This document shows positions 4,293 to 61,772 of a stretch of 64,000 bases of DNA, piece by piece. A program made the translations under genes and the position numbers. Under the pieces are notes generated by a model. It was given only the letters and a program-made list of their open reading frames with translations. It was not told the origin of the DNA and did no database searches. Every line of letters starts with the position of its first letter. The stretch's first letter is position 1. Source of the DNA: Amoebophrya sp. A120 (taxonomy: Eukaryota; Protista; Dinoflagellata); NCBI GenBank assembly GCA_905178155.1, contig CAJINV010000011.1:1509216-1573215 (forward strand), in the 5' to 3' direction.

Positions 4293-7200
4293 ATGCCTTT
4301 GTATCTCACCGCCAAGTTCAAGATGATGCCTGCCCTTGTGGCAGCTGCACTTGGGGGCGGCATCACGTCGACCTGTGTAGTAACGGCCTCCAATCCTGTC
4401 CGGCCTGGTCCCGTGGCGAAGGGCAAACCAGCTCCGAAACGACAGAGCAGACGTCCGGGGGAAGAACAGCAGGGGCAACATCAGTTGCACTACACAACCG
4501 GAGCACGCTCCACGGTGCGCGTTGTTGGAAGAAATCGGGCCTCCGGACGAGGTGGACAGCAGCAGCAAGGTCGCGCAAGTAACGGTCAGCTGCGGGCGCA
4601 GGAACAGCAACAGCAAGACCACCTAGACCAGCGTGCAGCCATCCCCATCGACGAGGCATTTGCAGATCGCAACCGCCTCGCCCGGACCCAAGTTTTGAGC
4701 GACCACCTGGACAGAACCCAGCCCCAGAGCATTGCGGACGCGAACCTGCTCCGGGCCTTTGTACGGGTCTTGGAGGACGAACGGCGGACGAACAACGGAG
4801 GTATCCGAGACCAGCAGCAAGGACTGCGTCAGCAATCCTTCAGTGGTCCTGTTCGTCGGACTGCTGGTGCGGGACGTCCAGGCCAGCAAGGTGGACAACA
4901 ACCTGCAGTCTATGAGCAGCCGCGCGACACAATGCTTCTACAATACCCCCAGCAGGAGCAGCCACAACGGGGGGATCAGCTGCCAAGTTTGATTTCTCCC
5001 TCCGGCGGAACAAACTATGCAACCCATTCCCTGCACCAGAACCTGTCTGCTGCAACCGTGACTCGCACCCCGTCGCCGACGGACGAAATTCTGAATCACT
5101 TCAACACGATGGAGGATGAGGAGCACGACAATTGGGGCCGAGACAGCTACAGCTCTGGGTCTGGAGGTTTTTCGTCGCCAGAACAAGTCGAATTCGGCGC
5201 GGAAGAGGATGCTTTCATGCGGTCCTTTGCCTGGAACGAACACGACGACTCGCTGACCATTCCGCCGTTTCAGCATTTTTACATCAACCGAGGCCGCGGC
5301 CACAATGACCATCTGCAGATGAATACCATTTCCTGTCCACCGGGGCTGGAAGCCAGAGCCACTCCCGTGACTACTTCGAGCACCTCCATTTTTCCCCGCA
5401 CCAGCACGCCAGCGATGGTTGTGGCTCCGCAGCCGCAGCGTCAGGGCCTTTTTCTCCCGGACCAAGATGAAGATCCGTTTGCGCTGCAGCTGCCCAACAT
5501 GCAGCAGCCCATGCGTGTGGAGATTTTTGACGGGAAAAAGCAAAGCATGGGTCAACAACGTCCGACAGCCAGTGCCTCCGCGGCGACCTCCTATACGTAC
5601 ACCGCCGGTCAGGAATTCCTGAGCGCTGCCACGGCGACGCCCTCATCTCCAAATGGAGTCACTCCCACTGCAGCGGGAACAGCCGGCGCTCCTGCTATGC
5701 GGGCACCGCCCGGGTTGAGTTTAGATCCCAGCAAGTCGAATGGCAGTGTGAGGATGATGTGGATGTGTGTCCCTGTGCCGTTTGATAACAACAAAAAATC
5801 TACAACTTCCAGCCCCGCCGCGGGCAAAGAAGAAGCAGCTCTTGCCCCAGCGCTGGTCGATGGCCATCTTCTACAGAATCTGCAACTTGTTCAGGATCAT
5901 GCTGGTGGCACCGACATTACGGCTGACTCTACGGACGACGTCGAGCGATTGAAGTCCGAGGTTATCGACTATGGAACTCTCAAACGTTACATTCTCAACT
6001 GTTACATGATTTGTCATGCAAATTTACCACCAAGATCGCCGCGATCAAGCTGCTTCGCATAGCAAATCTGCGAAGGGCTAAACAGCATCGAAATCTGTGC
6101 CAAATCTGTAATGCAAAAGGCGCAATCTTCGCCAGTTCACTTTTGCCGTTCTTGCATGACAAACTTATGGAACAGTTGAGAATGTAACATTTGAGAACGC
6201 CATATCGACATGCTGAGGGATATGGGTGACAACTTTGGCACCCAGCTCTCCGACGCTGAGGCAGTGGCCGCCCTGCAGATTGTCAACGAGCGCCTGGCGA
6301 AGCACTCCGAGGAAGAGATTGCGAAGGCCAGGAATTCCCTCGAAGATGGGCGCGCTGAACAAATGAGGCCGATGAAAGCAATCGGACGAGGAGGAGGACC
6401 AGAAAGCCCCACGACGACTCGTCAACACCGAGCATTAGATCATGCTGAAGCCGGCGGCGCGGCCTTCAGAGCACAAAGAAGTGCGACACAAGTAGAGCCT
6501 TTTTTGTCCTCCTCGCAGACGACTGGGGTCTCGGTCAGCAAAAAAACTGCTCTACCGCTGACGAGGGAAAACCAAAACGTGCAGGCGTCTCAGAGCGCGT
6601 TCCTGGCGAAGACTGCTCCAGCACCGGCGCCCGTCGGCTCCTTGGTGCACAACTTCTACACGCTCGAACCGATGTCTGCACATCAAACCGTAGATCGCGT
6701 GCCGCACCAACAACAGCGTCATGATCATCTGGCGTCGGAACAAGAAGATCATGTTCCACAACCGCCGCAGCCCCACCCGCAGTTGCGCCGCTCGCTGAAC
6801 GTCCAGAGGGGGCAACCGAGAACCCCTGGCCAGCAGCACGATGGTATTATTAACGCGAAGACGAGGAACGAGCACGGCAACATCATTATCGTTTCGAAAG
6901 GCTCCGTCGGGCACCCGCACGCCTGCCAGCAAGCCTGCAAGTACCACGGCAAGAAGAGCGGGTGCAAGGACGGAAAGGACTGCGACCGCTGCCACCTGTG
7001 CTTCTGGACGAGCAAGCTCAGCGGGGGCCGGAACTCGCCCGAAGCGAGGGAGAAGCGAAAGGGGATGAAGGAACAAGGCCTCTTGTCGGGAGGTCGAGGC
7101 GCTGCTTCGGCAGCTGGAACGAACCAAGAACAAGAAGACATTATTACACCACAACCTGGTCATCTCGTCTCTTCATCCTCTCCCGCGAGCAGCCCGAGTC

Positions 7201-7445
7201 AACAACAAGAGAGCATGTTGTACAACAACTCAAGCCCTGCCTCCCCGGCGTCTCCGTGGGTCGGGGTCGCTGATCAGCTGGCGGGAACTCGGGAAGATGG
7301 CGTTTTTCATCCAACAGGCAGTCCTTTCTCGACCAGAGGACAAGAAACTGAATCTGCCGACGTGCTGAACCAGGACATCATTCCATTCGCGACGATGAAG
7401 AAAGGCGCACGCGCAGGCCCGATGCTCCCGGGTCGCGTGTCGTGA
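4293..7445 (+). CDS. Protein with hydrophobic N-terminus and C-terminal CCCH-like Cys/His finger (paralog A); one non-canonical intron
   Basis: ORFs 4143..6062 and 6210..7445 join in frame after removing 240 nt (5970-6209). Motif SKGSVGHPHACQQACKYHGKKSGCKDGKDCDRCHLC. Colinear similarity with the gene at 10783-22921. Confidence 0.75.
5970..6204. mobile_element. TIR introner (family E), TSD TCGAC
   Basis: ~50-bp imperfect TIR tatggaactctcaaacgttacattctcaactg / cagttgagaatgtaacatttgagaacgccata; TCGAC at 5965-5969 and 6205-6209; paralog has a single TCGAC at 20428-20432. Confidence 0.92.
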
Positions 7446-10400: not shown

Positions 10401-10782
10401 ACTTCAACTCGTTCTGGTTCTCTTGACGTGGTAAAACTAAAACTAGAAGGAAGCAAAATTTGACTTCTAAGTCCTTCCAAAAGGCAACGAAATGAATTCT
10501 CACTACTCAAAGAAACACACCCGACCTTTTTTAGCCGCACTCCCGCCGTTTCAAGCTCAGAACGGTGGAAACATACAAGTACTTCTCAAGAAGCGCCGTA
10601 GTATGTAGGTAGTACTGCAACTACGTGGCTGATATTGATAAATAGTTCACTAGTACAACAGCTCGTACCGCAAAAAGTTTGATTTTTCCTCCCTCATCAA
10701 AGAAATAAAGTCTGCTCGAGGTAGCAGAGAATACAATTACACCTTCCGCCCCCAAAAGAACAAGAGCAAGACCAAGATCAAG

Positions 10783-13700
10783 ATGTCATCCTTCACAGCC
10801 ATCAACGGAACGATGATGGCAGTGGCTGCCTTTATTTTGTTTTTGGCAGCAGCTGGTGGTGTCTTCACTTGTGATGTTGTGATGGGCTCTAGTCCACCAG
10901 CACCTTTGCCAGTTGGACCAGTTGGACCACGTCGAGCATCCGCTCTTGCGAAAGGCAAGGCACCAGCCCCGGAAGGACAATCATCCAGGGGTCGTGGTTC
11001 TTTCTTGCTGCCGCGACCAATACCGCGACCAATATCCAAGAAAAGAAGAGGACCATCTTCACATGAGTCACTATCTTCACTGGATACAACCATATATTAT
11101 TCGCAGGAATAAGATTGTGACATAAATGAACAAATCATGGGGTGGTCGTAAGGTTCTTTGTGTAGAAGTGGTAGTGCTGCTGTCGTCATTCGAGGATACA
11201 TCATTGTCGTCGTGTAGTAGCTCCTTCTCCAGGTGGACAAGGAATTTTTGTTATGTCCGCGGAGATACAAGTGCCACGACCTGTTGCTATTGTTAAGTAT
11301 TTGATTCTTGTGATCAGGTCGTGGGAGATTGATGTTGCGCGGACCGCGGGCTCTGATCAGGATATACATAGTGGTCGCATGACAGGAGAACAACTTATCT
11401 GGTACTACAACATGTCGTTCGACATCAAATTTCCCATGCCAATGAAGTTGCAGTTGGTAGATCTAGATAGTGCTCCTTGTTTAGTGGTGATTTTTTCATT
11501 TTGTTCCATAGCCACGGCCAGAGCCAGACCAGTTTGAGCACCCGACCCCCGGGGCTGCAGGACCCTCGTGGTCCGCCGTTGTTTCGGAGCCTCCGGATCA
11601 CAGACAGATGACCACCAGCCCCGGAACTGCCGGAGTAGTACAGGACGAGACAGTGCACACACCGATGACTACCAGCACCGGAACTGCCGGAGCGCAGGAC
11701 GAGACAGATGGTACTAGAGGAGGTACTAGCAGAACCGGAGCCCCCCAGACAGCACAGACACAGTCACAGCTCGCCTTCGACGTCGGCGAGTCTTCGCAAG
11801 CGACGCTAGGCGAGCAGCGCAACCAAGCCTTCGCACGCCTGAGCGAGTCTGCGCGAAGGAGAATACAGCGTTATCGCGCTTGGCAAGGCGAAAGAAGAAG
11901 AGGACAGCAAGAACAGCGCGCAGAGCTGCAGCTGAGCCGTCTGGCGCAGGATAGTGGTGCTTCAGCGGCGTTGCGCGCTCGCTCGTCTGCGGGGGTTCAT
12001 CTTCCCGGAGGCACTAGTACCTCCACCGAGGTTCTTGTCCCCGAAGCCCAGACACACGACGAGGACCCCGGGCACAGGCTACAGGAGCGTCAGCGAGCTC
12101 CGCAAGCGGATGAAGGACTTCGAGAAGAATGGACAGAACTAGTACACCACCAGCAAGGCAGCCACTGCGAAAATCTATTGACGGAATTGCTTCATGAAAA
12201 AAGTATGCAAGAACTGGGGGTTGCAGCAGCCGTCCGAACCGTTCAAAGATTTTTTATCAAATGCAAATATGTTGTATGTAGTGAGGTCACCGAACGGTTC
12301 TAACCAGGGAGTTTTTTTGACAGCTACCCTGAAAAACGACCGGCAGTTTTCAAGCGGCCGGAAGCGTTTTTGCACATAAAAAATTTGCACTTATCAAGCG
12401 GCCGGGGCTTTGAAGTCAAACAAGCCCGGTGGAAAACTATCGACTCGCACTTGATAAAACGACGCAGGGGAGCCGGCAAAAGGGGCGCCCTTCTGAGGCG
12501 CCCACCGCCTTGGTTTCTGGCGATTTGGGGCGCCCAAAAAGGGGCGCGCAAAGAACGCGCTCAAAATCAGAACAGCGAAACAGCATGGCACGGCCGCGAT
12601 TTCGGAGCACTTTAGGCGGCCGCGAAAGCGGCCGCCTTTTCGCCGGTTTCAGAGCCTGGGAAGCTTTGCAAAAAGCGCCGGCGTGAAAAATAAAAACGCG
12701 AAAAAGAAAAAGCGCCCCAGACGCGCAAAGCCAATCCGCATGCTATGGGCCCGATCTTTCTTCGCTTTTTGGGCGCCCCCCGTAGCACCCGGATCGGCCC
12801 CATAGCATGGGGGCTGGCTTTCGGAAAGGAATTTCGGGAATTCGCCAAAATTTGTGACGTTTCTCAAGTGACCGCCATACCGTGCGGCATAACGTTACTC
12901 ACGGTGGTATGGCGAGCCCAAAAAAAGCAAAGCCGCGGCCAAGTTGGCGGTCGGCAAAAAAACGCCCACGACCTCACTACCCCCGCCCCGGCGGCTATAT
13001 TTCGTAAGTTGTATGGGTCTGGAAGGACGCAACTTGTGATGCTGATTTTGGATTCTACAGAAATTTGTATTGCGTGAGCAGCAACAGGAGTCCAGTGCAT
13101 GGTATGCGGAGGGGGCGGCATTTCTCATGCGGTATATCTATGCATCAGGAAGTACTCCTAAAATCTGTGATGCGAGGGCATACATCACAGACATCATTGG
13201 TCATGCAAAATGTGCATGACAAGTCTTGCAGCCTTCCAGACCCAGACAGATTTGCTATTGATAAGATTCGAAGAGCAGCAAGAAGTGGCATTCGAAGAAG
13301 CCCTCCGAGCCGTTCAACGGTTCGAAGAGCAGCGCTTTTTGTATGGGGGTGTCAGGATGGAAATCGACAAAGTGGAAATGGTTTGTCGTGCATATGAAAA
13401 CCGATCCCAGTTGGGCCCCCAATTACTAAGCGCCGGCGCATGACAAAAAAATTTAGCTGCAGTGAAATCCAACCTGTGATGCTGTTTCGGGCAAAGCAGG
13501 GTACACCTGTCATGCCCCTTCGCAGCTCTATCTCTCCCCGAATCAGGCTCCAGCTCGGTCTCACTTGGCATCCTTGCAAGACAGGCACTTTGTGCCTCGC
13601 ATTTTATGCATCACATAATTATTTCAACTTTGTTGATTTCGGTCCTGACGCTTCCATATTTTGGCGCCGGATTATAGTAATTATATCTCGGGCTTGCGCG

Positions 13701-16700
13701 ATCGCTCATCCCCCGCGGCTTCCGGCACCAGCGACCGTCTGAAAGCTGCGCAAGAGTTTCTACATGAAGCAGAGACACATCTGCAGCAGGCTGAAGCTGC
13801 CGGAGCACAGCTGGCACACGACCGGCGGAAAGCTGCGCAAGAGTTTCTACATGAAGCAGTGACACATCTGCAGCAGGCTGAAGCTGCCGGAGCACAGCTG
13901 GCACACGACTGGCAGAACGATGCGCAAGAGTTTCTACATGAAGCAGAGACACCTCTGCAGCAGGCTGAAGCTGCCGGAGCACAGCTGGCACACGACTGGC
14001 AGAACGATGCCCAAGAACTTACACACGTAGCAGAGGCATGTCTGCAGCGGGCTCAACATATCACATCAAGAAGAGCACATATCGATTTGGGTCGGGAAGG
14101 AGGTTGTCATCATGCTATTTTGTGAAAGCTACTTGAAGATGAACGCATGAGTGCAAATAACATCAAAATTATGCAGATGAGCCAAAAGCATGAGCAGCGC
14201 AAGTTTTTGAGCGGCTCCTTGTTCTTCGGTATATTATCCACCGCATAAAATACTTTATATACTTCGTTTATGCGAGGAAAATGAACACCGTAAGCACTTC
14301 TAGACTTTTTGGACACGACGACACAAGAGCATGATGTTGCGTCACAACCACGACATCGCACAGCAGTGTTGATGTCAGCTGCTGAGAACAAGCAAGCATC
14401 ACAAATGTTGCATTCTTCCAGGCCAGCCAGTCCGATATTTGCAATCCATACAGTTTCTGCAGCGAAATCTACTCGACCAAGAGCTGTACCAGATAAGAAT
14501 ACCCCCGCGCGAGGAACAGCCCCCGGAGGTGGAGGCTGCGTTGCAAACCCTGGGGTGCTTGCGCGATCGCATCGAGAGTACTGCTGGTCCAGACAGCAGC
14601 GCGGAAATTGAGTTGCTCCAAGGTGCTTAATTACTTTTGAGTATGTAATTGTCGAGATTAAGACAAAATACTTTGGCTGCATTATTATATGTAAAATCCC
14701 CGCAAAAATGGTAGTACGTGTTGTCAACGCGAGACTGTAAAGGTAAAATGTGGAGGGATTCTTCCAGTCCACCTCCGTCTTCGTTCTCTGATGGTGTTTC
14801 CGCGAAGTCGACTGGAGGAAGGAACTGTTCCTGCTCGGAAAATTTTATCTTGTTGACGAGCGTCGCTTTCCGCAACCCGAACAAGAACCCAATTGCGCAT
14901 GCAGCCGTAAAGGACTGCTTGGTCCAGTAAATCGGGTCCTGCATTTCTATCAGTTCCTCGAGCATTACTGGCGGAGGCTGGGTGTGTGCGAATAGTCCTT
15001 CTCGTTTCTTCCGCGTGACCAGCTGAGACAGATGAATTTTGTCTGCCGCCCCCAAGTTGCTGCCACCTGGGATCGCTTCTAAACGCGCGACGACAGACCA
15101 TAGATAGTCATCGGCCGTCGCGTAGAAGCTTCGCCCGACCTGATCGCCGACTAATGCCGTGAAAAACAGCGTTGCGTGCTGTCTGGTGATCGGCCATGGT
15201 TTTTTCAAGAAGGCGCACTCCTTGTGCTGCGAAGCCCGTGTGCAAAACTGGAAATAGCACTTCAGCCGAGACTCCTCTGTTGTTGCAGCAGGCCGTCGTG
15301 TCATTTCCTTATGCGCCGCCTGCATGCGTGGAAGGTCGTCAAGGAGTTTGAATACTTCGTCCTTCTGTTTTGTTCGTCGTTGTTTCTCCGGATCGTGTGC
15401 ATCGCGGTAAAGTTGGAGAATGCGCGGATGAGCTGCTACTTCAGAAAAGAACCCGGGCTTGAATTTGGCTGTTGGATCTTTCTCCGAAGGAATAATTCCT
15501 TGTGCCAGAAGTTCCGCGTCTCCGCAAGCTGCGATTGCTGCGGCAAAAACTTCTAGTTCTGTAACTTCCTGGTGCTGGGACTTGGCTGCTGGTGCCGCGG
15601 GGAGAACTGGCGCGGTACAAATCGGGTCGGAGCTTGATCTTTTTCTGGATGGCTGTGCGCGTGACTGCGGGACGATTCCGCACTGCCACTGTAAACTTGC
15701 AGTATCGTTTTCGGCCGATGCTATCGAGAGTACTGCTGGTCCAGACAGCATCGCGGAAATTGAGTTGCTCCAAGGTGTTTTGCGGGTCTTCATGGAGCAA
15801 GAAGACCGCGCGCAGCGTCTTCGACGTTTTTCAGGGCTCGCCGAAGGAGCTTCTGCCGCCGCAGTTGTAGAGGATCAGCAACAAGGACAGCAATTTTTGC
15901 AATCGTCCGTCGGGCATGATACAACTGATACTGGTACGGCGGTATTTTTGCACCAACAACGACAAGAACCTCGTCAGGAAGTGTGGACACAGTCCTCCTT
16001 GTTTTCGTTGCCAGAGGCGGAAGTCGAAGTCGATGATCTTGAAGAGCAGGACGAGCCTTGTTCTTACAGGAAGTGCTTTACCTTTGCCAGTGATGAAGAT
16101 AATGAAGACGGTGAATTAGTGCTATGAGAGTGCACAAGTCGTCCCTCTCCCCCTCATCAGTTGTATGGCACGAACAGCTGCATCTGCAAAAACATCACAG
16201 GTGTCTCCAACACAAGTGGAGTCTGTTTTTTATCATGACAAGTATTACTTCACGTCGCGCCGATTGTAGTTCGTTGTGGTTGTCAAGTTTCCGGTTCGGT
16301 GAATTAATTTGTTTGCCCGGCCGCAAACAGTGCCACAAGGCGGCAACTGGATTTGGGTTGACTTAGCGTGAGAAATCATGATGCATTCAGGGACATGATC
16401 GGGGCGCGTTCCGTTTAGTGCCTTGTTGTGCAGCAGCACCCCATGGACCCGCCCGCACGACCCCTGGGCAGCACAGGCTTTACTCTAGCGCAGCCGCTGC
16501 CGCAGTCTGTTACGCATGACAAATGGAGGGGACGAGGAGGGGACGAGTGCTGCTCTACTTTCATATGAGGATGAAGACTGTCTGACCAGCATCCCCATTC
16601 CGGCCTTTGCCCGTCACCAGGTCGAAGAACAGCACCAGCCGTGCGATCAGACGAGGTCGTCCTCGTCCTGTCCACCCGAAGCTCCAACTCTGCTGCATGC

Positions 16701-47415: not shown

Positions 47416-48752
47416 ATGATGATTCCCCGCGCGCCAACGCGGATAAAGCTCGTGCTGGAAGATGCTCAGGAGTATGGTAAGTGGTTAAAGCAAAAGGGCG
47501 GACATCAAGCTGCAGGAATTGTTCACAGCGCTTCTTCATCTTCTTCTGGAGGCTGCAACGTCATCAATCCTGACAGCAACGAACCCATGAACAGCAACGG
47601 CGCAAACCTCCCCCCACACCAGCGCATCTTCGGTGGAGGAGGAACCGCATTACAACACGGCGATCACGGAACAATTATAGCACCCAATACGACCCGCGGC
47701 CCCGCAGGCGTTGTAATCCAGCAACGCCAGCAACACGGTAGTAGAACCGGCGCCTTCGGAGGCGCATTCATCGGGAGCAGCAACTTTGGAGGCAGTGCCA
47801 GCGACGACATGATCAGCGAAATCCCGCACGAGGCGGAGTACCACGGGGTTTTGCGCAGAGGACAACTGTTGCAGCCACCAGGAATGGGTAACACCTTTTC
47901 TAATCAGGGTCACCACCATCAGCAGAGACCAAGCAGGAACCGCAATGGTGCCGGGATTGCGGACGACGAAGACGACGTGGAGGCTATGCTCTTGAATGAC
48001 CAAGCGATGATGATGGATGACCGCAGCCAGATGGAGGACATTATCAAAGTGAAAAAAGCCCCCACCCCATATCGGAAACGGAAGATGCGCGAATTTGTGA
48101 TGCTGTATTCGAGTACACAAATCGACTTGTATTGCTAGAAGTCCAAGCGACGAAGCTGCGGCCTAAATTGCAGGCAATCTGTCATGCTGTTTCCCACTTC
48201 CAGTTGCCTCCTGTCATCCTGGAGCTGCAAGGCTTTCCCACGCTTGGCAGCACTACAGTCCGCATCTTTTGCGTTCTAGCATCACAAAGCTGATTTGTGA
48301 CCACAAATCTGCATCACAGATTTCCGCTTTGATATGGGGAGGGGGCATTTTTCATTGTAATAGACATCTCGCATTCCTTAGAGGAGTTCGGACAACCAAA
48401 TCCCGGAAGCGCGTCCAACATCGAGCACCACAACATCATGCAAGGCTTCAGTGCCTCCGAAGCGGACAGCAGCGGGGGCACACCGTTAGTTAGCCCGGGG
48501 GATGTGGTGGTAGTGCAACCTTCCGATGGAGGTGGACCGATGGGTCAGCAGCAGCAGCAGGAACTACCACCACAACCACTCCAACAGCAGCTACATCATG
48601 TTCCTGCGAGTACTTCTATACTAAGCTCGGAGGAGGAGCGCCGGGTGCAGGAACTCCTCGGTTTAGGATTTGCACGACAAGACGCGGAACGAGCGTTGCG
48701 GATGGTAGAGGGAGACGTGCAAAGGGCTGCTGCGCTGCTGATGGACAATTGA
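47416..48752 (+). CDS. Protein with Cdc26 (APC/C)-like N-terminal motif and C-terminal UBA domain
   Basis: MIPRAPTRIKLVLEDAQEY resembles Cdc26 MLRRKPTRLELKLDDIEEF; C-terminal VQELLGLGFARQDAERALRMVEGDVQRAAALLM is UBA-like; joined across introner 48042. Confidence 0.65.
48042..48362. mobile_element. TIR introner (family F), TSD GACAT
   Basis: tatcaaagtgaaaaaagcccccaccccatatc / gatatggggagggggcatttttcattgtaata; 326-nt removal joins ORFs 47299 and 48438. Confidence 0.92.
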
Positions 48753-49797: not shown

Positions 49798-52700
49798 ATG
49801 TTACCTTTAGCAGCAGCACTGGCAGTTTTTTCCGCAACTTGTCCAATCTCCTCCATGGCCGCCGATTTGGGCAAAGCTAATAAAGCTGGCGGCGCAACTT
49901 CTGCGGAGAAAAACATTCCGACTCTCGGTGGTACTACAGGAGCTGCTGCTCCGGTCGCGTTTTACCATGACCCGGAGTTGTCCAGCACATCGGGCGCCGG
50001 TGGCGGGAGCAGTACTACTACAACGTCGGGTCATCAAGTAGATTCATCGGTCTCCACGCCCTACACACCTTCTCTCGAAGCTGCGCGGTTTGCAGCGGCG
50101 TTTACAACGCCTGGAAGTGGGCAGGGATCAAACCAGCAACATCTTCACCACACGATGTTCCACTCCGGTGGTTCTTCCTCCGCCTCCTCTTCGAGCAAGG
50201 ATTTACCGCAACGCATTCTCCCTCCGCAAGACGCCACCAGCCAAGGTTTTTACCAGGGTGCCATGGATGCCGCTTTGGCCGGTCACCCGGTGATCAAACC
50301 CCAGTCGTTTTCCTTTGTGGAGCACATGATGCGGACCGGGGGGTTCTTCAACAGCCACATTCCGCAGTCTAGTACCCAGATGACCATCAACATTCAGGTG
50401 CATTTGGACGAGTTACCCGACCGGGACCAGCTGAAGGAATTACTACGGGAACAGTGGGTGAAAAAGCACGCGCGGGTTCGCAGCGTAGCGCATCCGCAAA
50501 CAGGCGTATTCACTATGCTTCCGGAGTTCGAACCCGAGGGGGCGGTCTTGGATTGGGACTACCACTTGAAGGGCCCGATTCATTTGGACCAGAACGAGAA
50601 TGAAGAGGAGAACATGACCGTGACGGATTTTGTCTCTCTGTTGTATCAAGGACGATACGACAAAACGGGAAAAACGCGGGTGCGAGGAGGTCTGAAGATG
50701 AAAAACAACATCTTTCGCGATCCACGCGGCAACGCCGCGAGGAAGGACAGCGGTTTGTCTTTTTCCGATTTAGCGTCCCAAAACGCGGAGCTGGACCCGT
50801 GGCAGCCGTTGTGGCAGGTGTGGATGTTGCGGGGGAAGCCGGGGGCGGCGTTTTCGGCTAGGATTGACTTGCTCGAGCCGAAGTACAAGCGTGTGAACAT
50901 TTTGATCTTTCGCGTGCACCACGCTTTGGCCGACGGACTGCGGATCGCGCTTGCGGGGTCGAGCGGATTCGTGACCCAGCCGGACGGCAGCCCCGCGGAT
51001 TTCGGGAAATTTATCGAGGAACAGAAGCAGAAATTTCTAGCGAAAATGGCCGGGAAAAAAGTTGATAATGATCCGGAAACAACAAGACCTGAAGTGAGCT
51101 CATCTTCGTGTTCCGCAGGCGGTCCTGAAGGCCACCGTGCCAGAAACAAGACCTGCTCCATGAGCAGCTTCAAGCTCCTGAACGCTTTGACGATGGATCT
51201 GCGCAAACTGCCCGGCCGCCTCCTCAACTTCGCTGGCAGTCTCGGCGCGCTCGCCCAGCACATGTTTTTCCTGCCGAAGCAAACCTTGACCACCTTCTCC
51301 GGTAGAAAAACCAGCACTGACCACATGTGCGAGGGTTTGACGAAACGAAAGTTTCTGTACTTTCCGACGTTAGATTTGGACATCGTGAAACTCGTGAAGA
51401 ACATTCTTTCCCGTCCGGAAGACCCGGCGAGGGTGTACTGGGAGCCGGAACAGGAGGACTTGATCGGTAATGGAAGCCGACATTCCACTGCGAAGACGTC
51501 TAATAAAGGGGCCGCAAAAGCTGGCTTGCGGCTGCGGCGACCGCTGTCGCCGAGGCAGCTAGCGGAACTGGAGATGAACAGGACGAGTGGGGGGCGACAG
51601 GGAACAAGTGGCGCTGCTGGTTCTAGTCCTGCTACTGGCAGTGGCAACACGAACACAATCGCTCCTGGGGAAGCAACACCCGCCGCTTCTCCCCAGCACA
51701 ACGCGGGACAAGGAGCTTCTGGTGCACGACCCTCGAACCTGCAGTCCAGGACAACCGGCCTCCCCCGCATGGTTTCGAGAACGGTCCGCGCGCTGTCCCG
51801 GAGCCCGGAGTTTCTAAAACGCTTTTTTGGAAATTTGTTGCGGAAAACGTACAACAAAATCGCCGCGGCCCGGAAGGCGCCGAACGTGATCTCTGTGAAT
51901 GACGTTTTGCAGAGCTGCCTGTACGGTGCGATCGCGCGCTACATGCTAGAAACCCGGCAGGACCCGGCGGTCGGGGGGAATGGGGAGGACGACGGAACCG
52001 GAAGCGGGGATGACGGTAGTGGCAGTGACTGGACCATGAGCAGTGGTGAAAATCAAAAAAAATTGGTGTTGCAGCGCATGAAAGAGCAAGCCGCGGGAGT
52101 GAAGAAGCCAGTGAACAATGATGACCAAGAGGATCACTTCACAGTGTCGCCTTCCGCGCTCCTGCTCCCCTCCTCTTCGTCGTCTTCCACCGATAAGAAT
52201 GTGGTCGTCGGCGGAGCTGCAACTGCTGCCCTTCCAAACATCAAACCGGGAAAAACCAGCTTTGTCCAGAAGTGCCTCGCCCGGCTGAAATCCTGCGCAG
52301 TTAGTCGGAAAAAGACCGTAAAACTGCACTCCGCCACCTTCATGGGGTTTCCGGACATGAGTACTTCTGTGCCGAAAGGGCAGGGAGAGTCAACATCTTC
52401 CTATCATAATGTGCAAGAAAAGGTGTCGGCGCCGTAGTACTGACTTCTCTCGCACTTATGCATGACACGTTGCACGACCAGTTTTGGAGTTGAAAAAATT
52501 TGTAATGCAGCTATTTATACTAAAAAAAAAAACTAAGACCGGCTACAACGACACTGTTCCTTTTGCAATGCATACTTCCCAATCCGTGTCTTCCTTCGTG
52601 GACAAGGAGAACAAAAAGCAGAACCAGCTCTACAACGACTGGGTGACCTGTCTCGGCGCGTCGATTCCGGTGTGGAACACGAAGCAGCACCGGCTCTACA

Positions 52701-53452
52701 CCCCGCTCGAGCGGTTAACTCTGACTAAACAGTCCGGGGACTGGTACAAGTCCCACGCGTACCCCTTCGTGCTCCGGTGGCTGTTGCGCAACGCGCTGTG
52801 GTATCGACAGTAAATGATTTCCCGTACTACACGTACAAATGCGGTCTTCGCATGACAAAACTTGGCTTCGATCCTAGTTTAGCATGACAAGTTTTTCGCT
52901 CCAAATTCGTGAAATTTGTGATGCATCTTGTACACGTACGGAAAATTTGTACTGCATATGTGGATGCTGGGCCCGTTTGCCAACCGGCAGGTTTTGTCGC
53001 ACTGCTTCTCGCGGCACAGCCTGCTCTTGTCCAACGTGCCGGGGTACAACGACGGCCCGATCAATTTGCTGGGCAAGCGCGTGCAGGCGATTTACGTGCC
53101 GATGCCCCAGATTCTGAACTACGCCATGATCTTGACCTACAACCAAAAAGTTTTCGTCACCATGGCCGTGAACGAGATCACGGTGACGAAATCGGACACG
53201 ATCCTGAAGCATTTCCGGGCGGAATTCACGGAATTGGTGCACGCGGCGTGGGAGAAAACGGAGGACGAAGCGGAGCGGGAGAAGCTAGCTGCGTTTTTGC
53301 TCGCGGAGGAGAGTTCGACTTTTGCGGCGGAGGGAGAAGATCTTCATGAAGGGGGTGAAAGCTGTGAAGATGAGCGGGACACTTTCTCTGCGGCGGGATT
53401 AGCGTCGCAAATGATGGGAAGAGGAGTCAGTGAAGATTACGAGAAGTTGTAG
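49798..53452 (+). CDS. Wax ester synthase/diacylglycerol acyltransferase (WS/DGAT) family
   Basis: QPLWQVW..FRVHHALADG (HHxxxDG active site), SVNDVLQSCLYGAIARY, C-terminal LSNVPG; hydrophobic N-terminus; two introners removed in frame. Confidence 0.85.
52402..52574. mobile_element. TIR introner (family H), TSD CTTCC
   Basis: tatcataatgtgcaagaaaaggtgtcg / cgacactgttccttttgcaatgcata; 178-nt removal restores frame. Confidence 0.88.
52802..52958. mobile_element. TIR introner, TSD TGTGG
   Basis: tatcgacagtaaatgatttcccgtac / gtacggaaaatttgtactgcata; 162-nt removal gives NALW-MLGP. Confidence 0.88.
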
Positions 53453-53809
53453 AAGAGGCGGGCGAAGATGAGGATGAGGAAGCGAATAGGAGATTCTTTG
53501 ATGATAACTCCAGGAGCGAGTAGACTTGGAGTTGGACGACTTAGAGGCGGTGGAAGTGTCGACGAACAAAAATGGAGAAGGATGAAGAAATATATAAATC
53601 TGAAGATTGAGGTTCTTGATCCTGTCTTCACCTTCCGCCTCAACGTTCTTTTTTGACTTTTTACCAAACAAAACTGAAACTTGATACACCAGAGAATAGA
53701 GAAATTTCGGGTCTTTGAAACTACAGAACACAATTGGCATCGTTGCAGTGAGGAACAGGAACTACAAATGATCCTTATTTTACTTGTAACGCGGAACCGG
53801 AAGTAGCAC

Positions 53810-55720: not shown

Positions 55721-56034
55721 CATGGGATTGCTTGGTGCATGACATAGCTATCAAATTTTCATTTTACTTGCACGGCTCCGGATGATGAGACGCAGTTTCG
55801 TGATTGCATTGGTATTCCTGGTTGGACGAGTGGGAGCGTCTTGAGCGCTTTTTGTGGTGTCATTGGTACTACGTCATTATTCCGACGGCGACTTGCTTCT
55901 ACTAAGTGCGAGGCTCTTTTGTCCACCGCCCGTCTAACATTCTTGCTACGACATACCTGACGCTGTCAATTTTTTTCTCAGTATTTCTATTTCCCTTTGG
56001 CTCCGTGCCCGCGGCCCCAGCCCCATCGTTCAGG

Positions 56035-58903
56035 ATGCGCAAGGTCGCACAGAGATGCTGGACCCGAGGACAACGGGGCTCGACGTCATCTCTTCGCTTT
56101 CCTATCCCGCCCCAAGTTCATCTCGCCTGCCGCACACGGGGCCCCTTACTTACTCCGGGAGCTGCGCGACCTTTCTCAACGGCATCTTCGCGGCCGGCGT
56201 TCTCACCAGAGCATTCCTCTGCGCCTCAACCGAGAAAAACATCAGCTTCCAAGTTTTCCGGCCGATCCGACATTCTCGTTGAGCCAACCGACACTCCGCA
56301 CACACTTTACCAGAAGCTCGTCGACCGCGGGGAGCTCAAGACGGATGCGGAACAGGAAAAAACCGTGGAAATGCTTACAGCTATCTTCCACTCCGTTCTG
56401 GGCAGCAAGAAAGAATCTACTCCTGCTACTCCCCCTCGCGGCCTGTACATCTACGGTCCGGCTGGTTCCGGGAAGTCTCTCTGCATGGACCTGTTTCACC
56501 TTTGCATCTCGCAGCAGAGACCGAATACCGAACGAACCCACTTTCACGAGTTCGTGTACCGGCTGCACCGCAGGTTGAACGAATTGTCCAAGGGCGAAAA
56601 TATTAGCAACAGCTCATCAACAAGCACTTTCGCCGGCATCCCGAAACAAACTGACACTACGAGGCAGAGGATCGAGAGAGTCGCAAAGGAAGTCGCGGAG
56701 CACAGTGAGGGGTTGCTGTGTTTTGACGAGTTTGCGATTACCACGATCCAGGATTGTACGATGCTGTGTGTGTTGTTTCAGGAACTGTTCCGACAGAACG
56801 TGGTGTTCATCACGACGTCCAATCGGGCACCGCAAGATTTGTACGAGGACGGTTTGAACCGGCATTTGTACTTACCGGATTTCTTAAATTTATTGCACAC
56901 CAACTGCGACATCCGGTCAGTGGGGTTTGAAACCGGGATCGACTACCGACAGGCGGGTTATAATTCGTTAGGGCAAGAATTAGGCAGGCTGGTGGACGAG
57001 GAGGGGACAGGCGAGGGCGGTGATTCAGGCGCTTACGTGGTCCACGAGTTGTATTTTCCCGACCCGGAGGTTGCGGATGCAGGAGCAGGTGAAGGTGTGA
57101 ATATTAAACTACCAAACCGCGAGCAGGCTTTCGCCTGGGCCAGTTCAACATCTTCACTCGAGCCGATAGCGGACTTCGATTTATCATCTGCAGCAGCTTC
57201 CACGTCCTCGACGGTGACAGGAAGTTCCACCCCGATCCAGATCCCCATCAGTTATGGGCGAACCTTGGAGTGCAAAACCTCCGGTCCCGGCTGGGTCTTG
57301 TTCGATTTCCGCGAGCTTTTCGGCGGAACCGGTGGCGACACGGAGCGGAAGCTGAGTCCGCGTGACAGCAAAGAACGACCCCGACATTCCTCCACTGCCT
57401 ACGGGCACTACAGTGCGGACGATTTCAACGCGATCTGCCGCCAGTTCCACACGGTTTTGCTCGAAAATATTCCGAAATTAACCACGGAAGAACACAACGA
57501 GGCGAAGCGGTTCACGAATTTTCTCGACTGCGCGTACGAAAACCACTGTCGGTTGGTGTTGCTGAACATGCTATGCACTGCAAATATGTCTGGGTCTGGA
57601 AGATTGCAACTCGTCATGCTGTTTCTGGACCCCAAATAAAATTTGTATTGCGTGACCAGCAAGAGGGGTACAGTTTTTGGTACACGGACACGGCATTTCT
57701 CATGCGGAAGGTGCATCAGGAAGCCCTCTAAAAGTCTGCGATGCTAGTTCATGCATTACAGGCATCATGGGTCATGAGAAATATGCACGACAAATCTTGC
57801 ATTCTTCGTCTTCCAGACCCAGACACTTTTGCATTTGATACATGCACTGCGCAAAGGTTGCTGACGTTTTTCAGGAGCTGCGGTCCTTAGAGTCCTTGCG
57901 GATGGCGGACTTTGGACAGCACGAGATTCCGGCCGGCGCGGCAGATCAGGACACGACGAAAGACGCATCCGCGATTGTGCAGGCGATAAAAAAGCTGAAG
58001 GAGCGGAATGTCGGGCTCGAGCAACTCGAAAAGGATAAGGGGGAGACGGAGCCGCACGTTGAAAAATCGTCGGAGGATCAGCAGGTCACCAGTGGCGCTG
58101 GGTCAAGCACAGGTTTGTAGTTGATGGAGTACCTGCTTGATTTGAGAACGCGTAAAGGTCTTGCATTGACTTTGTTCTTTCTGCTTTTGGAGCATCTTGG
58201 AGGATGCGATAGTAGATACTGGTACTGCAGAGCCAGAACATAAAAAAGTTTCGCCACAAAAAAAACATTCAGGCTCACCACCTTCCCAACGAGGACCTTC
58301 GTCTCTGAAGAGCGACATGAAACACCCGATGAGCCTTTCAGATTTCGACCCCGAAAAGGATATGCAAATCTGGAAGCAGGACGCGCAGGGCATGCCGCAA
58401 GTCACCAAATCCTGGGATGAGCGACGCCGAGCGAGTCAGTTTCTCTGGGAAGCAGCGGATCCCACCGCGGAACAGCAGACTTTCAAAGGCGTGTTCGCCG
58501 CGGCAATTGCGTCGTTGCACGAGATAAGCGTTGCAAATATGTCTGGGTCTGGAACATGCCAACTTGCGATGCTGCATTTGCATTCCAAAAAAATCTGTAT
58601 TGCATGAGCAGCAAAAGGAGTCCGACTTTTGTTACGCGGAGAGGGCATTTGTCATGCGGGATAGGCATCAAGAAGCTGTCCTAACAAATCTGTGATGCTA
58701 GGGCATGCATCGCAGACAACATGGCTCATGCAAAACGTGCATGACAAGTGTTGCAACCTCCCAGACCCAGACCCAGACATATTTACGTTTTATACGAGAC
58801 GGGGTTTGCAGTGAAACGCGCGGTCTCCAGGTTGCACGAGATGCAGAGTCGGAGATACTTGGAGGTGTGGCAGGACAAGCGCGGGGGCGAGACGAAGAAG
58901 TAG
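56035..58903 (+). CDS. AFG1: AFG1/LACE1/ZapE-family ATPase, probably mitochondrial
   Basis: GLYIYGPAGSGKSLCMDLF (Walker A), HFHEF, LCFDEF (Walker B), TSNRAPQDLY, NEAKRFTNFLDCAYE; last exon after intron removal ETGFAVKRAVSRLHEMQS; Arg/Ser-rich leader. Confidence 0.92.
57572..57840. mobile_element. TIR introner (family A), TSD CATGC
   Basis: tatgcactgcaaatatgtctgggtctggaaga / tcttccagacccagacacttttgcatttgata; 274-nt removal restores frame. Confidence 0.93.
58525..58794. mobile_element. TIR introner (family A), TSD CGAGA
   Basis: taagcgttgcaaatatgtctgggtctgg / ccagacccagacatatttacgttttata; 275-nt removal restores the conserved AFG1 C-terminal motif. Confidence 0.93.
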
Positions 58904-59489
58904 GAGTTTTTATTAGTACCTAACAAGAAGAACATACACCTCAACGCAATCGCAATGTAGTATGTAGCAGCTCGAGCTCCTTGTTTCGTGTGCAGATAGT
59001 ACAGCTGTTGTATGATCGAAATTTTGCTGGCTCATTCTCATATTTGCCAGCGGGGGTTTCTTCATAGAGTATTTTGGAAAAAAATGCACGCACAAGGTTT
59101 TATGTGACCAGAATCCAAGTCGAGTTTCATGATTGTGCCGCGACTTGCGCATAGGGTTGCAGTTGCACCAACCACACCGAGCCAGACTTCCTTCATTGTC
59201 TTGTTCGTTTCTCGTTTTCATCGATTCTCGTTTTGAGAAATATCTTCGTGTTTTGCCACAGAAATAGATGTCCGCTGATCACTCTGTAGCCAGAGCGAGT
59301 AGCGTTTGAGAGCGTGAGAGCCGCATCGTGTTTGTGTCTGGACGTCGATTTCATCCTGTTTGATAGTTGGTTCTGTGGCAATTACTTAGCAGACATAAGA
59401 AGAAATAGAAAAAAATCTGTACCAAATGTAAACCCTCCGTGAATAAATTATAAACAGAAAATCCTCTCGGTCTCGAAAACAACCTCAAA

Positions 59490-61772
59490 ATGCCAGTGAC
59501 TTCTCCGAAGCACCAGGACAATGCGCGGTTCTATTCCGTGGAGCGCCGGATGGGCCGCATGTCCGACGACCGCGGATACGACAGGCAGCGGTTTGAAAAC
59601 TATTCCGCCTGGATCGACAACCAGACCAGGGCCATGCAAAAGTCCGAGGCGTTTTTTTTCGGGAGGCAGTCGAGTAAACCGCTGTACGGGTTCGAGGCGA
59701 AAAGACCGGTGATAGACAAACCAAGAGACGTCAAGACGTTTTACGTTCAGGTAAAGAATTAGTGTGTGAGATTACTATTTTCACTTGTTCATTTGTCACG
59801 AAGAAAATGAAAATCTATCACCGCCACCATGACCTGGAGCTGCAACTGCATCATTCGTAGACGTAAGTGGACCTAGTTCTCAAGTCTGAGCCAAACCATC
59901 TTCAACAACGTGTGGACAACTGTTGCGCATTCTATTCTACACCATTCTCAGGAACCAACCTTCACGTCGCAAACGGTGTGCGCGAGAAAATACGACCAGA
60001 ATTACAAGGTCGTGGAAGATCCGTTAGAAGACCTCCGTGCCGATCCCTACCACGAGCCGAACTTTCTTGCGGTTGGAGAAAAAGATCACTATGGAGATCA
60101 AAGGTACAGGGTGCTGCTTGAATTTGATTTGCCAGCGCATTTTTGTTTATCACACGTCTACGTGGCAGCTATCTCGCATGACGGAGTGTTGTCGTTGTGC
60201 TTTTCGTGCTGCAACGATCATCGCCGTATTCTATTCATCAATCAATGAAATTGATCGGAAACCACCACCACCAGGTCTGGTTCCCAACACCCAGAAAAGA
60301 ACCGACTACCCAAACTCTGGCGGCCAATGGACAAAGAGTTACGGAAAGCAGTGCCACAGGAGCTCGTCGATAGCTGGATGCGATCCATGGGTGGGGACAG
60401 CAGGAGAGTAGACCCGAAGGTATATTAGTAGAGATTGATGAGCTGCGTGCATCTTTTTGTAGACAATTTTATTTTGTCAGGAGAGACAACAGAGGCATGA
60501 CAAATGTGCTATTTCATCTTTTACTTTTTGCACGACCCGCATCACAAAAAAATCTCTTCCTTTCAGGATCCGACCTTCCAAGTGCTTTTCAAAAACGACA
60601 TTGACGTGGTAAAAAACTCTTCCGCGAAGGGAATCAAGGAACTGAACCTCGACTCCTCGGTCTTCCACCTACCCCACTACCTGGAAGAAGAGAAGAAGGA
60701 CCTCCCACCCCCGCCAGAACCCCCAGTAATCGGGGAGGACAGTCTGCTCCCGATCGAAAAAACGGGAAGAGTGTTCAAGAACCGGGAGGAAGCGCGGGTG
60801 TTAGTCAGACCGGATACGAGGTTTGAAGGGGAACTAGACCAGCTGGAACAACCGCCACTACCGGAAAGTCCGAAATCCCAGATGTCACCCCGCAACATCG
60901 GCCGGAAATTCGGCGACTCGCCCGTGCCGTCCGCCGCGACTGGTGCTGCGGCGGCCATGATGGACGAATTGCTGGGGAGGTCACCGGATGGAATAGCAAA
61001 GCCGTACACGCGGCCGGTGCAGGGCATTGTGCAGCCGGACAAGAGTCTGATGAACTTGTCCATGGAGGAGAGATTAGGGGAGTGGAAGGCGCTGAAGAAA
61101 CAGGACGCGCGGGGGAAAATATGACAGTGCACAACTCCCCCACCTTCCCCTCATTTGTTATGCAAAATCCCAAATCCAGTCGGTGCCTTGTGGCACTGCG
61201 TGCATGACAAATTCTGGAAGCCCAAACAGTACAACTAGATTAGGTGCGTAAATTATTTGTCATGCATGGGCTCCACGCGTGCGGGTGCTTGTATTGCTGT
61301 TCATGCCACACAAATGAGGGGGAGGGGGAGTTGTGCACTCTCATAGAAAATCCGGGGAGACGTGAAGGAGATTTTGAAGCAGTCGAGCATCCTGTTAAAA
61401 GTCCAGCAGCACCCGCCAGTGGTACCGAGAAAGATCTTCGTGTCCGCAGAAGACAGATACAACAATAACTGGGATCGGGACATGCACAGGGTCAGGATGC
61501 GTTATCCGGGAGGTACAATACTGTTCAGTGGATGTTAATTTTGGTTTTTTGTCTTTGTTTCGTCATGCGTGCGGAAGATCAATACGGATTGTCATTGTCA
61601 TTGTCCCGTATTACGCGTGTTTTCGTTGTGCATGAGCAATGTCAGGTTCCAGAATTATGATGAAATAGAAATCTTGCGTCGAAAACAACTACAGGCACGC
61701 GCGCCACCGAGGGCATGGCAGGGACTTGGGCCCCGGAAGGCGGGGGTATCGCTGCGTTGGCGCCGCCCGTGA
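59490..61772 (+). CDS. Unknown protein, ~6 exons
   Basis: Phase-consistent GT-AG introns 59751-59951, 60104-60274, 60420-60566, introner 61120, and a probable last intron 61491-61652 (3' end tentative). Confidence 0.6.
61120..61345. mobile_element. TIR introner (family G), TSD GAAAA
   Basis: tatgacagtgcacaactccccc / gggggagttgtgcactctcata; 231-nt removal keeps frame and removes the TGA at 61122-61124. Confidence 0.93.

What the first reader, a model, noticed from the sequence alone, without database searches (positions are those of the whole stretch)
5965..61350. About 23 TAT...ATA inverted-repeat elements with 5-bp target duplications act as non-GT-AG introns
Seen: at least 8 sequence families share one grammar, [5-bp TSD] TAT-TIR ... 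TIR-ATA [5-bp TSD]. Every copy found lies in coding sequence. Lengths cover all three phases, yet deleting element+one TSD generally rejoins the ORFs and rebuilds conserved motifs (AFG1 RAVSRLHEMQS, YdcZ DHYG, Cys finger). TSD sequences are arbitrary, so most have no GT/GC/GA-AG ends. Established: inverted-repeat introners are reported in Amoebophrya, so the phenomenon may not be new. Inference: removal is guided by the element ends or hairpin rather than standard splice dinucleotides. TAT termini plus a 5-bp TSD match no eukaryotic transposon superfamily I can name, and no mobilising enzyme is in this window.
Basis: partly seen in the sequence, partly recalled or inferred. Interest (0 to 1): 0.9.

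Follow-up and report, generated by a model that had tools for sequence, protein, structure and literature searches.

The report
Amoebophrya TAT introners, fixed cut offset
Genes of the marine parasite Amoebophrya are interrupted by small transposon-like inserts that lack normal splice signals yet are missing from likely-RNA contigs at one fixed offset from their ends; the inserts are already published, and this offset likely explains how they are removed without damaging the genes.

Summary
Real, and largely published. The window holds 23 TAT...ATA inverted-repeat elements; 16 have an exact 5-bp duplication. A window protein is 100% identical to one annotated as Amoebophrya sp. A120. Farhat 2021 already describes that strain's introners: TAT-start inverted repeats, 3-5-nt direct repeats, non-GT-AG ends. 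Gozashti 2025 files one A120 family as Ginger with '5-bp TSD, TA/TA termini', so 'no nameable superfamily' is overstated.

All 11 joints fit one cut only: exon|N-TAT...ATA-NNNN|exon. The cut holds where the duplication is decayed or displaced, so it is measured from the element ends. The offsets 1+4 equal the 5-bp duplication, which restores the pre-insertion message in any phase or orientation. Farhat calls the border variable or unknown, although their Table S4 sites are all NT-NN.

The machinery is untested: a U1-less spliceosome is my best guess, and a Euglena-like dedicated pathway is the main rival. This scan noted similar introns in other protist genomes (unchecked).

The parts
5970..6204 (+). 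TAT...ATA element, 235 nt, exact 5-bp duplication; predicted intron 5969-6208
   Evidence: X1 and X2 contigs join 5962 to 6203 with no letters between; the paralog near 20420 holds the empty site with one copy of the 5-mer
12255..13263 (+). Composite element, 1009 nt, of the 57572 family, with a nested ~730-nt repeat (12279-13007); original duplication displaced by three extra T
   Evidence: X2 joint 12252-13267 skips 1014 nt, measured from TAT
13342..13658 (+). Element, 317 nt, exact duplication; opposite orientation to family members 19661 and 20726
   Evidence: X2 joint 13336-13659
14059..14450 (+). Decayed element or intron, 392 nt, weak inverted repeat, flanks differ at 3 of 5; left end defined partly from the RNA joint
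   Evidence: Joint 14057-14455 with no ambiguity in X1 and X2; the pair was among several candidates; end-pairing probability near 0
16123..16565 (+). Element, 443 nt, ends related to the 41159/61120 family, no duplication left
   Evidence: X1 joint 16120-16569, ambiguity 1; an X3 contig spans it unbroken
18466..18753 (+). Element, 288 nt, 21109 family in opposite orientation, no duplication; removal does not rejoin the upstream frame
   Evidence: no RNA joint listed
19113..19258 (+). Element, 146 nt, exact duplication, high-copy family
   Evidence: 139 X3 contigs diverge before its first base; no RNA joint listed
19315..19583 (+). Element, 269 nt, exact duplication
   Evidence: no RNA joint listed
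19661..19969 (+). Element, 309 nt, exact duplication
   Evidence: X1 joint 19654-19969 with only 24 letters on the short side
20726..21052 (+). Element, 327 nt, exact duplication
   Evidence: X1 joint 20720-21053
21109..21398 (+). Element, 290 nt, duplication differs at base 5
   Evidence: X1 joint 21103-21399 keeps base 5 of the right copy
22081..22331 (+). Element, 251 nt, duplication differs at bases 4 and 5; lies in a Cys-rich finger
   Evidence: X2 joint 22079-22336 with no ambiguity; only this cut keeps the Cys without a stop; the paralog's empty site matches the product; an X3 contig spans it unbroken
22530..22834 (+). Element, 305 nt, duplication differs at base 4
   Evidence: X1 and X2 joint 22528-22839 keeps base 4 of the left copy
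28938..29189 (+). Element, 252 nt, exact duplication, near the end of the DMT_YdcZ gene
   Evidence: X8 joint 28932-29190
36390..36538 (+). Element, 149 nt, 19113 family, exact duplication
37379..37538 (+). Element, 160 nt, 19113 family, exact duplication, last base mutated
41159..41389 (+). Element, 231 nt, exact duplication
48042..48362 (+). Element, 321 nt, exact duplication, upstream of a UBA-domain exon
52402..52574 (+). Element, 173 nt, exact duplication, weak inverted repeat
52802..52958 (+). Element, 157 nt, exact duplication, upstream of a WS/DGAT C-terminal exon
57572..57840 (+). Element, 269 nt, exact duplication, in the AFG1 gene
   Evidence: absent from annotated protein P0001
58525..58794 (+). 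Element, 270 nt, exact duplication, third base mutated, in the AFG1 gene
   Evidence: absent from P0001
61120..61345 (+). Element, 226 nt, exact duplication, 41159 family
56035..58904 (+). AFG1-like ATPase host gene, 719 aa: two element introns and one canonical GT-AG intron (58113-58272)
   Evidence: The product with these three introns removed is found in full in P0001, annotated as Amoebophrya sp. A120

Best explanation
These are the introner elements of Amoebophrya sp. A120: short inverted-repeat inserts with TAT...ATA ends, likely non-autonomous DNA transposons, that are missing from likely-RNA contigs at one fixed offset from their ends and are likely removed by a divergent spliceosome. 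Spread (inferred): an integrase-like DDE transposase of Ginger or GingerRoot type, encoded elsewhere, binds the ends and probably the repeated inner motif GCAT(G/C/T)ACAAA, and inserts with a 5-nt staggered cut that duplicates 5 bp. Removal (offset shown, machinery inferred): the 5' cut is 1 nt before TAT and the 3' cut is 4 nt after ATA. The intron therefore reads N-U-A-U...A-U-A-N-N-N-N. Its +2 U and +3 A match a canonical GUA donor, while +1 and the last two bases are free. Because 1+4 equals the 5-bp duplication, the pre-insertion message is restored in any phase, and because both ends are alike, in either orientation. End pairing probably helps but is not strictly required.
For: Organism: P0001, annotated as A120, is 100% identical to the window's AFG1 and lacks both elements plus 5 nt each. 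[quoted passage not shown] Insertion: empty sites with a single 5-mer in paralogs. In 20 outside loci, 93 of 135 pairs chosen without regard to flanks have an exact 5-bp repeat, 123 of 135 at most one mismatch, 1 a 4-bp and 0 a 6-9-bp repeat. Removal: 11 of 14 elements in 5500-29550 are skipped in X1/X2/X8 contigs; X3 has even depth near 45 and keeps them, with unbroken contigs across 16123 and 22081. The cuts allowed by the 11 joints intersect in one position; two joints fix it alone. Six joints are informative; if cuts were drawn evenly from the six positions, the chance that all fit this one is 60/46656 = 0.0013 (my arithmetic; under 0.008 allowing any position). All 9 predominant A120 non-canonical sites in Farhat Table S4 have T at +2, as do all 9 for A25. 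Orientation: 13342 is skipped as well as its opposite-orientation relatives 19661 and 20726; in outside loci five families occur both ways round, for example 7 vs 15 and 12 vs 6. No sequence need at the free positions: +1 is A30 C23 G25 T16 and the 3' end is AG in 7 of 94. A120 retains nearly all spliceosomal proteins and U2/U4/U5/U6 but no detected U1.
Against: X1, X2 and X8 are one sample, assembled contigs, and 'RNA' is the tool's guess; no canonical intron joint was seen as an internal RNA control. They may not be independent of the published data. For 8 of the 10 joints the tool marks 'between: not known', and one has only 24 letters on its short side. The fixed cut rests on six joints, and the left end of 14059 was chosen after seeing its joint. 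Farhat's Fig. [quoted passage not shown] Nothing here tests the spliceosome: the conserved +2 U may only reflect the transposon terminus, position +5 is C more often than G (53 vs 34 of 94), and no AG or strand-biased branch motif exists (176 vs 193, P = 0.40). No transposase was found in 44 window ORFs; Farhat found none in A120; the Ginger label in print concerns one family, which shows no homology to known Gingers. 18466 does not fit.
Confidence: 0.6

Rival explanations
1. Same elements and same fixed cut, but removal is by a dedicated non-spliceosomal pathway, as proposed for Euglena nonconventional introns: a factor recognises the paired or TAT/ATA-marked ends and cuts and ligates at set spacer lengths, perhaps releasing a circle.
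For: Euglena introns use fixed spacers of 3 nt and 5-6 nt around paired CAG/CTG ends, shown by knock-ins, and the authors favour non-spliceosomal factors. Here both splice dinucleotides are free apart from +2, the signals are symmetric, 17 of 22 folded elements have z at or below -4 and 17 of 22 pair their terminal triplets, and U1 was not detected in A120.
Against: Intron 14058-14454 is cut at the same offset with near-zero predicted end pairing. +2 is T in the predominant sites of both A120 and A25 although their termini differ. Canonical GT-AG introns sit in the same genes, so a spliceosome is already at work there.
Confidence: 0.3
2. The elements are excised from DNA in some life stage, like ciliate internal eliminated sequences, and X1/X2/X8 show that DNA or its transcripts.
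For: X1/X2/X8 are not on record as RNA. Elements with inverted repeats are natural transposase substrates.
Against: X3 keeps the elements at even depth, and no empty-site joint is among its 15 listed joints (529 not shown). X1/X2/X8 cover the stretch patchily, with empty bins. The cut is asymmetric (1 and 4) in the same sense at all six informative joints, all in + strand genes, which a symmetric DNA element would not be expected to give. Farhat reports 66,565 RNA-seq-supported introns, over 60% non-canonical.
Confidence: 0.05
3. The joints are reverse-transcriptase template-switch artefacts: the enzyme jumps across a hairpin between short direct repeats, and the true messages keep the elements.
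For: A hairpin flanked by direct repeats is the classic setting for such jumps (recalled, not from a call). Five of the 11 joints lie within intact duplications.
Against: Joints 14057-14455 and 22079-22336 have no shared letters at the junction and 16120-16569 has one, yet all fall at the same offset. At 22081 a jump inside the shared three letters would give Trp, not the observed Cys product. Retention puts a stop or frameshift into all 23. In outside loci, removal of 17 elements yields one 1052-codon frame and of 15 a 681-codon frame.
Confidence: 0.02

Closest known systems
Introner elements (IEs) of Amoebophrya sp. A120 (Farhat et al. 2021, PMC7789003)
   Same: Same organism by a 100% protein match. 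Inverted repeats starting TAT with an A run about seven bases later, 3-5-nt direct repeats (5 bp in their Fig. S19 legend), non-GT-AG ends, many families, no internal transposase, mean non-canonical intron length about 240 nt.
   Different: [quoted passage not shown] 3 legend). Here one offset fits all 11 joints and does not need the direct repeat. The shared inner motif and the use of both orientations are not mentioned in the sections I read.
A120 introner family 38 and other A120 TIR introners (Gozashti et al. 2025, PMC12130899)
   Same: TIR DNA elements; family 38 is listed as Ginger with '5-bp TSD, TA/TA Termini' and has Copia/Gypsy-like ORFs.
   Different: Family 38 is about 810 nt with ORFs; the 23 elements here carry none that I detected. 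Whether any belongs to family 38 was not tested. Their automated TSD and splice-site calls vary by family (20 rows).
Ginger1, Ginger2/TDD (PMC2836005) and GingerRoot (PMC6839031) integrase-type DNA transposons
   Same: Terminal inverted repeats; TDD-4/5 make 5-bp duplications; GingerRoot ends are TA...TA with little target preference.
   Different: Ginger ends are TGT; GingerRoot makes 6-bp duplications. TAT with 5 bp fits none exactly, and no transposase was found here.
Euglena nonconventional introns (Nomura et al. 2025, PMC12501133)
   Same: Works alike: MITE-like origin, paired ends, cuts at fixed spacer lengths from an end motif, free junction dinucleotides.
   Different: Euglena uses N3-CDG...CH'G-N5-6 followed by a purine; here N1-TAT...ATA-N4 with any following base. 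Unrelated lineage and sequence.
Fritillaria borealis non-canonical introns (seen only in review PMC11282704)
   Same: Transposon-derived, with inverted repeats and duplications, removed by an adapted spliceosome according to the review.
   Different: Those have preferred ends (AG-AC, AG-AT); here only +2 T is fixed.

Membership tests
Amoebophrya A120 introner elements (Farhat 2021) | Found in Amoebophrya sp. A120 | tested here: met
   Window AFG1 is 100% identical to a protein annotated as A120; the A25 orthologue is 43%
Amoebophrya A120 introner elements (Farhat 2021) | Inverted repeat starts TAT, about seven variable bases, then at least three A | tested here: met
   Terminus profiles of 36 window ends and 94 outside elements against the text; TAT itself was required by the scans, and some families have CAG or CAC in place of the A run
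Amoebophrya A120 introner elements (Farhat 2021) | Direct repeat of 3-5 nt at the borders | tested here: met
   16 of 23 exact 5 bp in the window; 93 of 135 in outside loci
Amoebophrya A120 introner elements (Farhat 2021) | Removed from RNA without GT-AG | tested here: met
   11 of 14 laid elements skipped in probable-RNA contigs; 0 of 23 allow GT-AG
Amoebophrya A120 introner elements (Farhat 2021) | Repeated families without an internal transposase | tested here: met
   Families; summed X3 depth up to about 150,000 on element bins against about 45 elsewhere (not a copy number); no transposase family among 44 ORFs
Ginger1 / Ginger2-TDD transposons | TGT...ACA termini | tested here: not met
   Termini are TAT...ATA; Ginger pattern TGTNR
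Ginger1 / Ginger2-TDD transposons | 4-bp (most) or 5-bp (TDD-4/5) duplication | tested here: met
   5 bp as in TDD-4/5
GingerRoot transposons | TA...TA termini | tested here: met
GingerRoot transposons | 6-bp duplication | tested here: not met
   0 of 135 with a 6-bp repeat
Ginger / GingerRoot transposons | Autonomous copy encoding an integrase-like DDE transposase | not testable with these tools
   No whole genome held; none seen in the window
U2-type spliceosomal introns | GT/GC...AG ends | tested here: not met
   At the fixed cut, 5' is CT6 TT6 AT6 GT5 and 3' is spread over 16 dinucleotides
U2-type spliceosomal introns | U at +2 of the intron | tested here: met
   23 of 23 at the fixed cut, partly by construction; all 18 predominant sites in Farhat Table S4
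U2-type spliceosomal introns | Branch point and lariat intermediate | not testable with these tools
   No raw reads of this strain; the inner motif has no strand bias
Euglena nonconventional introns | N3-CDG...CH'G-N5-6 followed by a purine | tested here: not met
   N1-TAT...ATA-N4, next base unbiased
Euglena nonconventional introns | Cuts at fixed spacer lengths from paired end motifs | tested here: met
   One offset for 11 of 11 joints; pairing predicted for 17 of 22
Euglena nonconventional introns | Released as circular RNA | not testable with these tools
   Needs RNase R or circular-junction reads
Ciliate-type internal eliminated sequences (features recalled) | Excised from DNA in a somatic or stage-specific genome | tested here: inconclusive
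   One DNA-like run keeps the elements; other life stages not examined

The most novel reading that the evidence does not exclude
Most A120 introns obey a simple, so far unstated splicing code, exon|N-UAU...AUA-N4|exon, read from the transposon's own ends by a ruler whose two offsets add up to the 5-bp duplication. The host has thus evolved a U1-less or wholly non-spliceosomal machine that makes one transposon lineage invisible in mRNA at any site, phase and orientation. Euglena's 3+5 spacers may be an independent case of the same logic.
Probability: 0.55. Interest if true: 0.72.

Novelty: already known. Interest (0 to 1): 0.45.

Why it matters
The elements are known, but how A120 removes tens of thousands of introns without GT-AG and without a detected U1 is an open question in the source paper. 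A fixed offset from TAT/ATA turns 'no clear splicing signature' into a rule that can be tested with existing RNA-seq and with minigenes. It predicts where a branch point or a cutting enzyme must act, gives gene finders a usable model for this genome, and explains why these transposons are tolerated inside exons: the splice offsets cancel the target duplication exactly.

Tried and rejected
No whole genome is held, so no genome-wide clustering or search for autonomous copies was possible. The repeat finder was swamped by the tandem array at 29.6-31.1 kb. No listed holder of the stretch is on record as RNA. A search for the full-length product of the 18752-22918 gene found nothing, which is weak evidence. 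Two terminal patterns gave 0 matches in viral contigs. Idea that the inner motif is a branch point: no strand bias, so I read it as a probable transposase site; not proven. Idea that +1 drifts to G or the 3' end to AG: not seen in base counts; only 3 of 6 oriented base-5 mismatches have G on the intron side, inconclusive. No long ORF-bearing copy was seen in the outside loci, but the output was cut and one search was limited to 600 nt. Dropped rows: L016 (overlaps L015); 56 of 150 outside elements whose host strand could not be called; 24 of 94 not assigned to a family; composite 12255 was not folded. Chance pairs from relaxed scans (for example 3468, 7526, 18326, 19913, 31227) were rejected because they overlap real elements or have weak inverted repeats and few inner motifs. 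Roy 2023 (Curr Biol) is not held; its preprint was seen only in a listing, with 0 hits for Amoebophrya.

Full report
OBSERVATION. A strict scan for an exact 5-bp repeat around TAT...ATA with at least 10 of 14 complementary end bases found 12 elements, against 0-1 in each of 10 block shuffles. Allowing one mismatch in flank or terminus, and using a terminus profile, added more; with an end-alignment score of 20 or more there were 17 hits against 0 in 5 shuffles (one of the 17 is a chance pair). An RNA joint defined the last one. The final set is 23: 16 with an exact duplication, 2 with one mismatch, 1 with two, and 4 with none adjacent. They form six BLAST groups plus singletons. Removing element plus 5 nt joins a long + strand frame for 22 of 23, and keeping any one gives a stop or frameshift. 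The exception is 18466-18753. All 23 junctions touch stop-free runs of 100 codons or more, which cover 71% of the element-free window.

ORGANISM AND PRIOR WORK. The first AFG1 exon is 100% identical to P0001, annotated as Amoebophrya sp. A120. The 719-aa product predicted by removing elements 57572 and 58525 and a GT-AG intron at 58113-58272 is found in full in P0001. Farhat et al. 2021 (PMC7789003; I read the abstract, sections 10, 11, 12, 16, 25 and 32, and supplement passages; no figures) report that over 60% of RNA-supported A120 introns are non-canonical, that 29,850 are repeated introners in 1,954 families, that their inverted repeats start with TAT, that direct repeats are 3-5 nt, that U1 was not detected and that no transposase was found in A120. 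Gozashti et al. 2025 (PMC12130899; main-text passages, 23 of 58 A120 rows of one table, two supplement files not searched) list A120 family 38 as Ginger with '5-bp TSD, TA/TA Termini', while the text says it has Copia/Gypsy-like ORFs and no homology to known Gingers. The phenomenon, the TAT ends and the 5-bp duplication are therefore in print.

THEY ARE INSERTIONS. Two paralogous genes in the window give empty sites: the site of 5970 is present near 20420 with one copy of the 5-mer, and the site of 22081 near 6925. A metagenome-collection scan with one family's end returned 21 loci of one record set, 143 kb. After dropping one overlapping locus, 135 end pairs chosen without looking at flanks showed exact 5-bp repeats in 93, at most one mismatch in 123, a 4-bp repeat in 1 and 6-9-bp repeats in 0. 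In run X3, element bins have summed depth up to about 150,000 against about 45 elsewhere, and 139 contigs diverge just before the first base of 19113. All 94 oriented outside elements carry the inner motif GCAT(G/C/T)A(C/G)AAA with at most one mismatch, on both strands equally (176 vs 193) and starting 40-60 nt from each end; in the window 53 of 94 matches lie in 15 elements that cover 3.9 kb. I read it as a shared transposase site (inference).

THEY ARE REMOVED. Contigs of X1, X2 and X8 (one sample; RNA by the tool's guess; patchy cover) skip 11 of the 14 elements in 5500-29550, and every joint listed is an element. X3, with even cover, keeps them, with unbroken contigs across 16123 and 22081, both skipped in X1 or X2. 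No equivalent cut gives GT-AG for any of 23; two allow GA-AG or GC-AG.

THE CUT IS FIXED. With an intact duplication the cut cannot be placed, but six joints have unequal flanks. Counting how many of the five left flank bases stay in the exon, the allowed values are 4 only (14059), 4 only (22081), 3-4 (16123), 0-4 (21109), 4-7 (22530) and 3-5 (12255). The intersection over all 11 joints is 4. The intron is therefore N-TAT...ATA-NNNN. Three points show that the ends set the cut and the duplication does not. 16123 and 14059 have no duplication left. At 12255 three extra T separate the old duplication from TAT, and the joint skips 1014 nt, as measured from TAT, not 1017. At 22081 only this cut keeps the finger cysteine without a stop, and both diverged bases fall in the copies this cut makes intronic, judged by the paralog. 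[quoted passage not shown] The same paper's Fig. 3 legend calls the sites variable and the border unknown. Four literature searches and passages of PMC12005148, PMC11282704, PMC11453091 and PMC9860276 showed no statement of a fixed offset; figures and subscription papers were out of reach, so it may be in print.

NO OTHER SEQUENCE NEED. In 94 host-oriented outside elements the +1 base is A30 C23 G25 T16 and the last two bases are AG in 7. Families occur in both orientations (7/15, 12/6, 6/4, 6/2, 2/2), and in the window 13342 is skipped like its opposite-orientation relatives. Host strand there was called from frame length after removal, so those long frames (1052 codons over 17 elements in L008, 681 over 15 in L001) support removal but are not an independent test of the offset. 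Seventeen of 22 folded elements pair their terminal triplets, but 14059 does not and is still cut correctly (crude shuffles).

MECHANISM. Shown: insertion with 5-bp duplication, absence from probable-RNA contigs, one offset, both orientations. Inferred: spread by an integrase-like DDE transposase, since TA...TA ends occur in GingerRoot and 5-bp duplications in Ginger2/TDD (passages of PMC6839031 and PMC2836005), though neither family fits both features. Inferred: removal by a divergent spliceosome that keeps the +2 U/+3 A of a GUA donor, ignores +1, and places the 3' cut four bases after AUA. I give the whole account 0.6; the identification as A120 introners alone is near certain. The main rival (0.3) is a separate pathway as proposed for Euglena, whose introns use fixed 3-nt and 5-6-nt spacers (PMC12501133; abstract and sections 8 and 12). 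DNA excision (0.05) and template switching (0.02) are unlikely for the reasons given under the rivals.

LIMITS. Earlier notes of this scan describe similar hairpin-bounded or position-defined introns in other protist genomes; none exists for this genome. I did not check them.

VERDICT. Observation confirmed; system already known; a probably unstated fixed-offset rule makes the open question of its splicing testable. Interest 0.45.

Noticed in passing
window 19661-19774 (run X5): Raw RNA reads under the same species label but of another strain (90-95% alike) hit only this family. 251 reads carry what looks like a template-switch adapter (recalled) at about 19774, so one RNA seems to start inside an element copy and run out through its end into a flank not in this window. 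It could be an element-borne start site or a splicing intermediate.
   Followed up: no
window 12279-13007: A second multi-copy repeat is nested in element 12255. It has 10-bp inverted ends starting TAG (12279-12288 and 12970-12979), a 28-nt tail, and an 8-bp direct repeat around the whole. X3 depth is about 21,000; it also matches L010 near 4792-4872. The whole 1014-nt intron is still skipped.
   Followed up: partly
window 4140-7445 and 18752-22918: Two diverged paralogous genes with a C-terminal Cys/His finger carry elements at different sites (one vs seven), and each supplies an empty site for the other.
   Followed up: partly
window 60420-60566 and 61513-61645: Two predicted canonical GT-AG introns contain the elements' inner motif (2 of 6 introns printed); they may be old elements turned canonical, or chance.
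   Followed up: no
window 29640-31210: Array of 10-bp tandem units and longer units in inverted arrangement between two genes.
   Followed up: no
window 43700-46500 and 54000-55700: Two GC-rich stretches (about 65% GC) with long overlapping frames. Only a CCCH-like zinc finger at 43675-44181 scored in Pfam, below the curated cut-offs. Possibly remnants of other mobile elements.
   Followed up: partly
window 6971-9406 and 23244-25060: Probable-RNA contigs run about 2 kb past the predicted stop codons of two genes, suggesting long 3' untranslated regions or read-through.
   Followed up: no
window 13732-14056: Coding tandem repeat of 87 nt (29 codons) just upstream of intron 14058-14454.
   Followed up: no
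window 14571-18400: Short 49-58-nt near-identical duplicates (14571/15723, 16636/18347, 17290/26717) and a moderately repeated segment near 16600-17300 suggest local rearrangement upstream of element 18466, which may explain why that element does not rejoin a frame.
   Followed up: no
L001-L021: All 21 metagenome-collection matches come from one record set and carry the same element families, 68-91% alike to window copies among the longest matches, at up to 19 elements in 8.6 kb. Whether this is the same strain or a relative was not examined.
   Followed up: partly
window 22876-22920: A solitary element-like end with no partner lies 40 nt after element 22530, near the predicted stop of that gene.
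   Followed up: no
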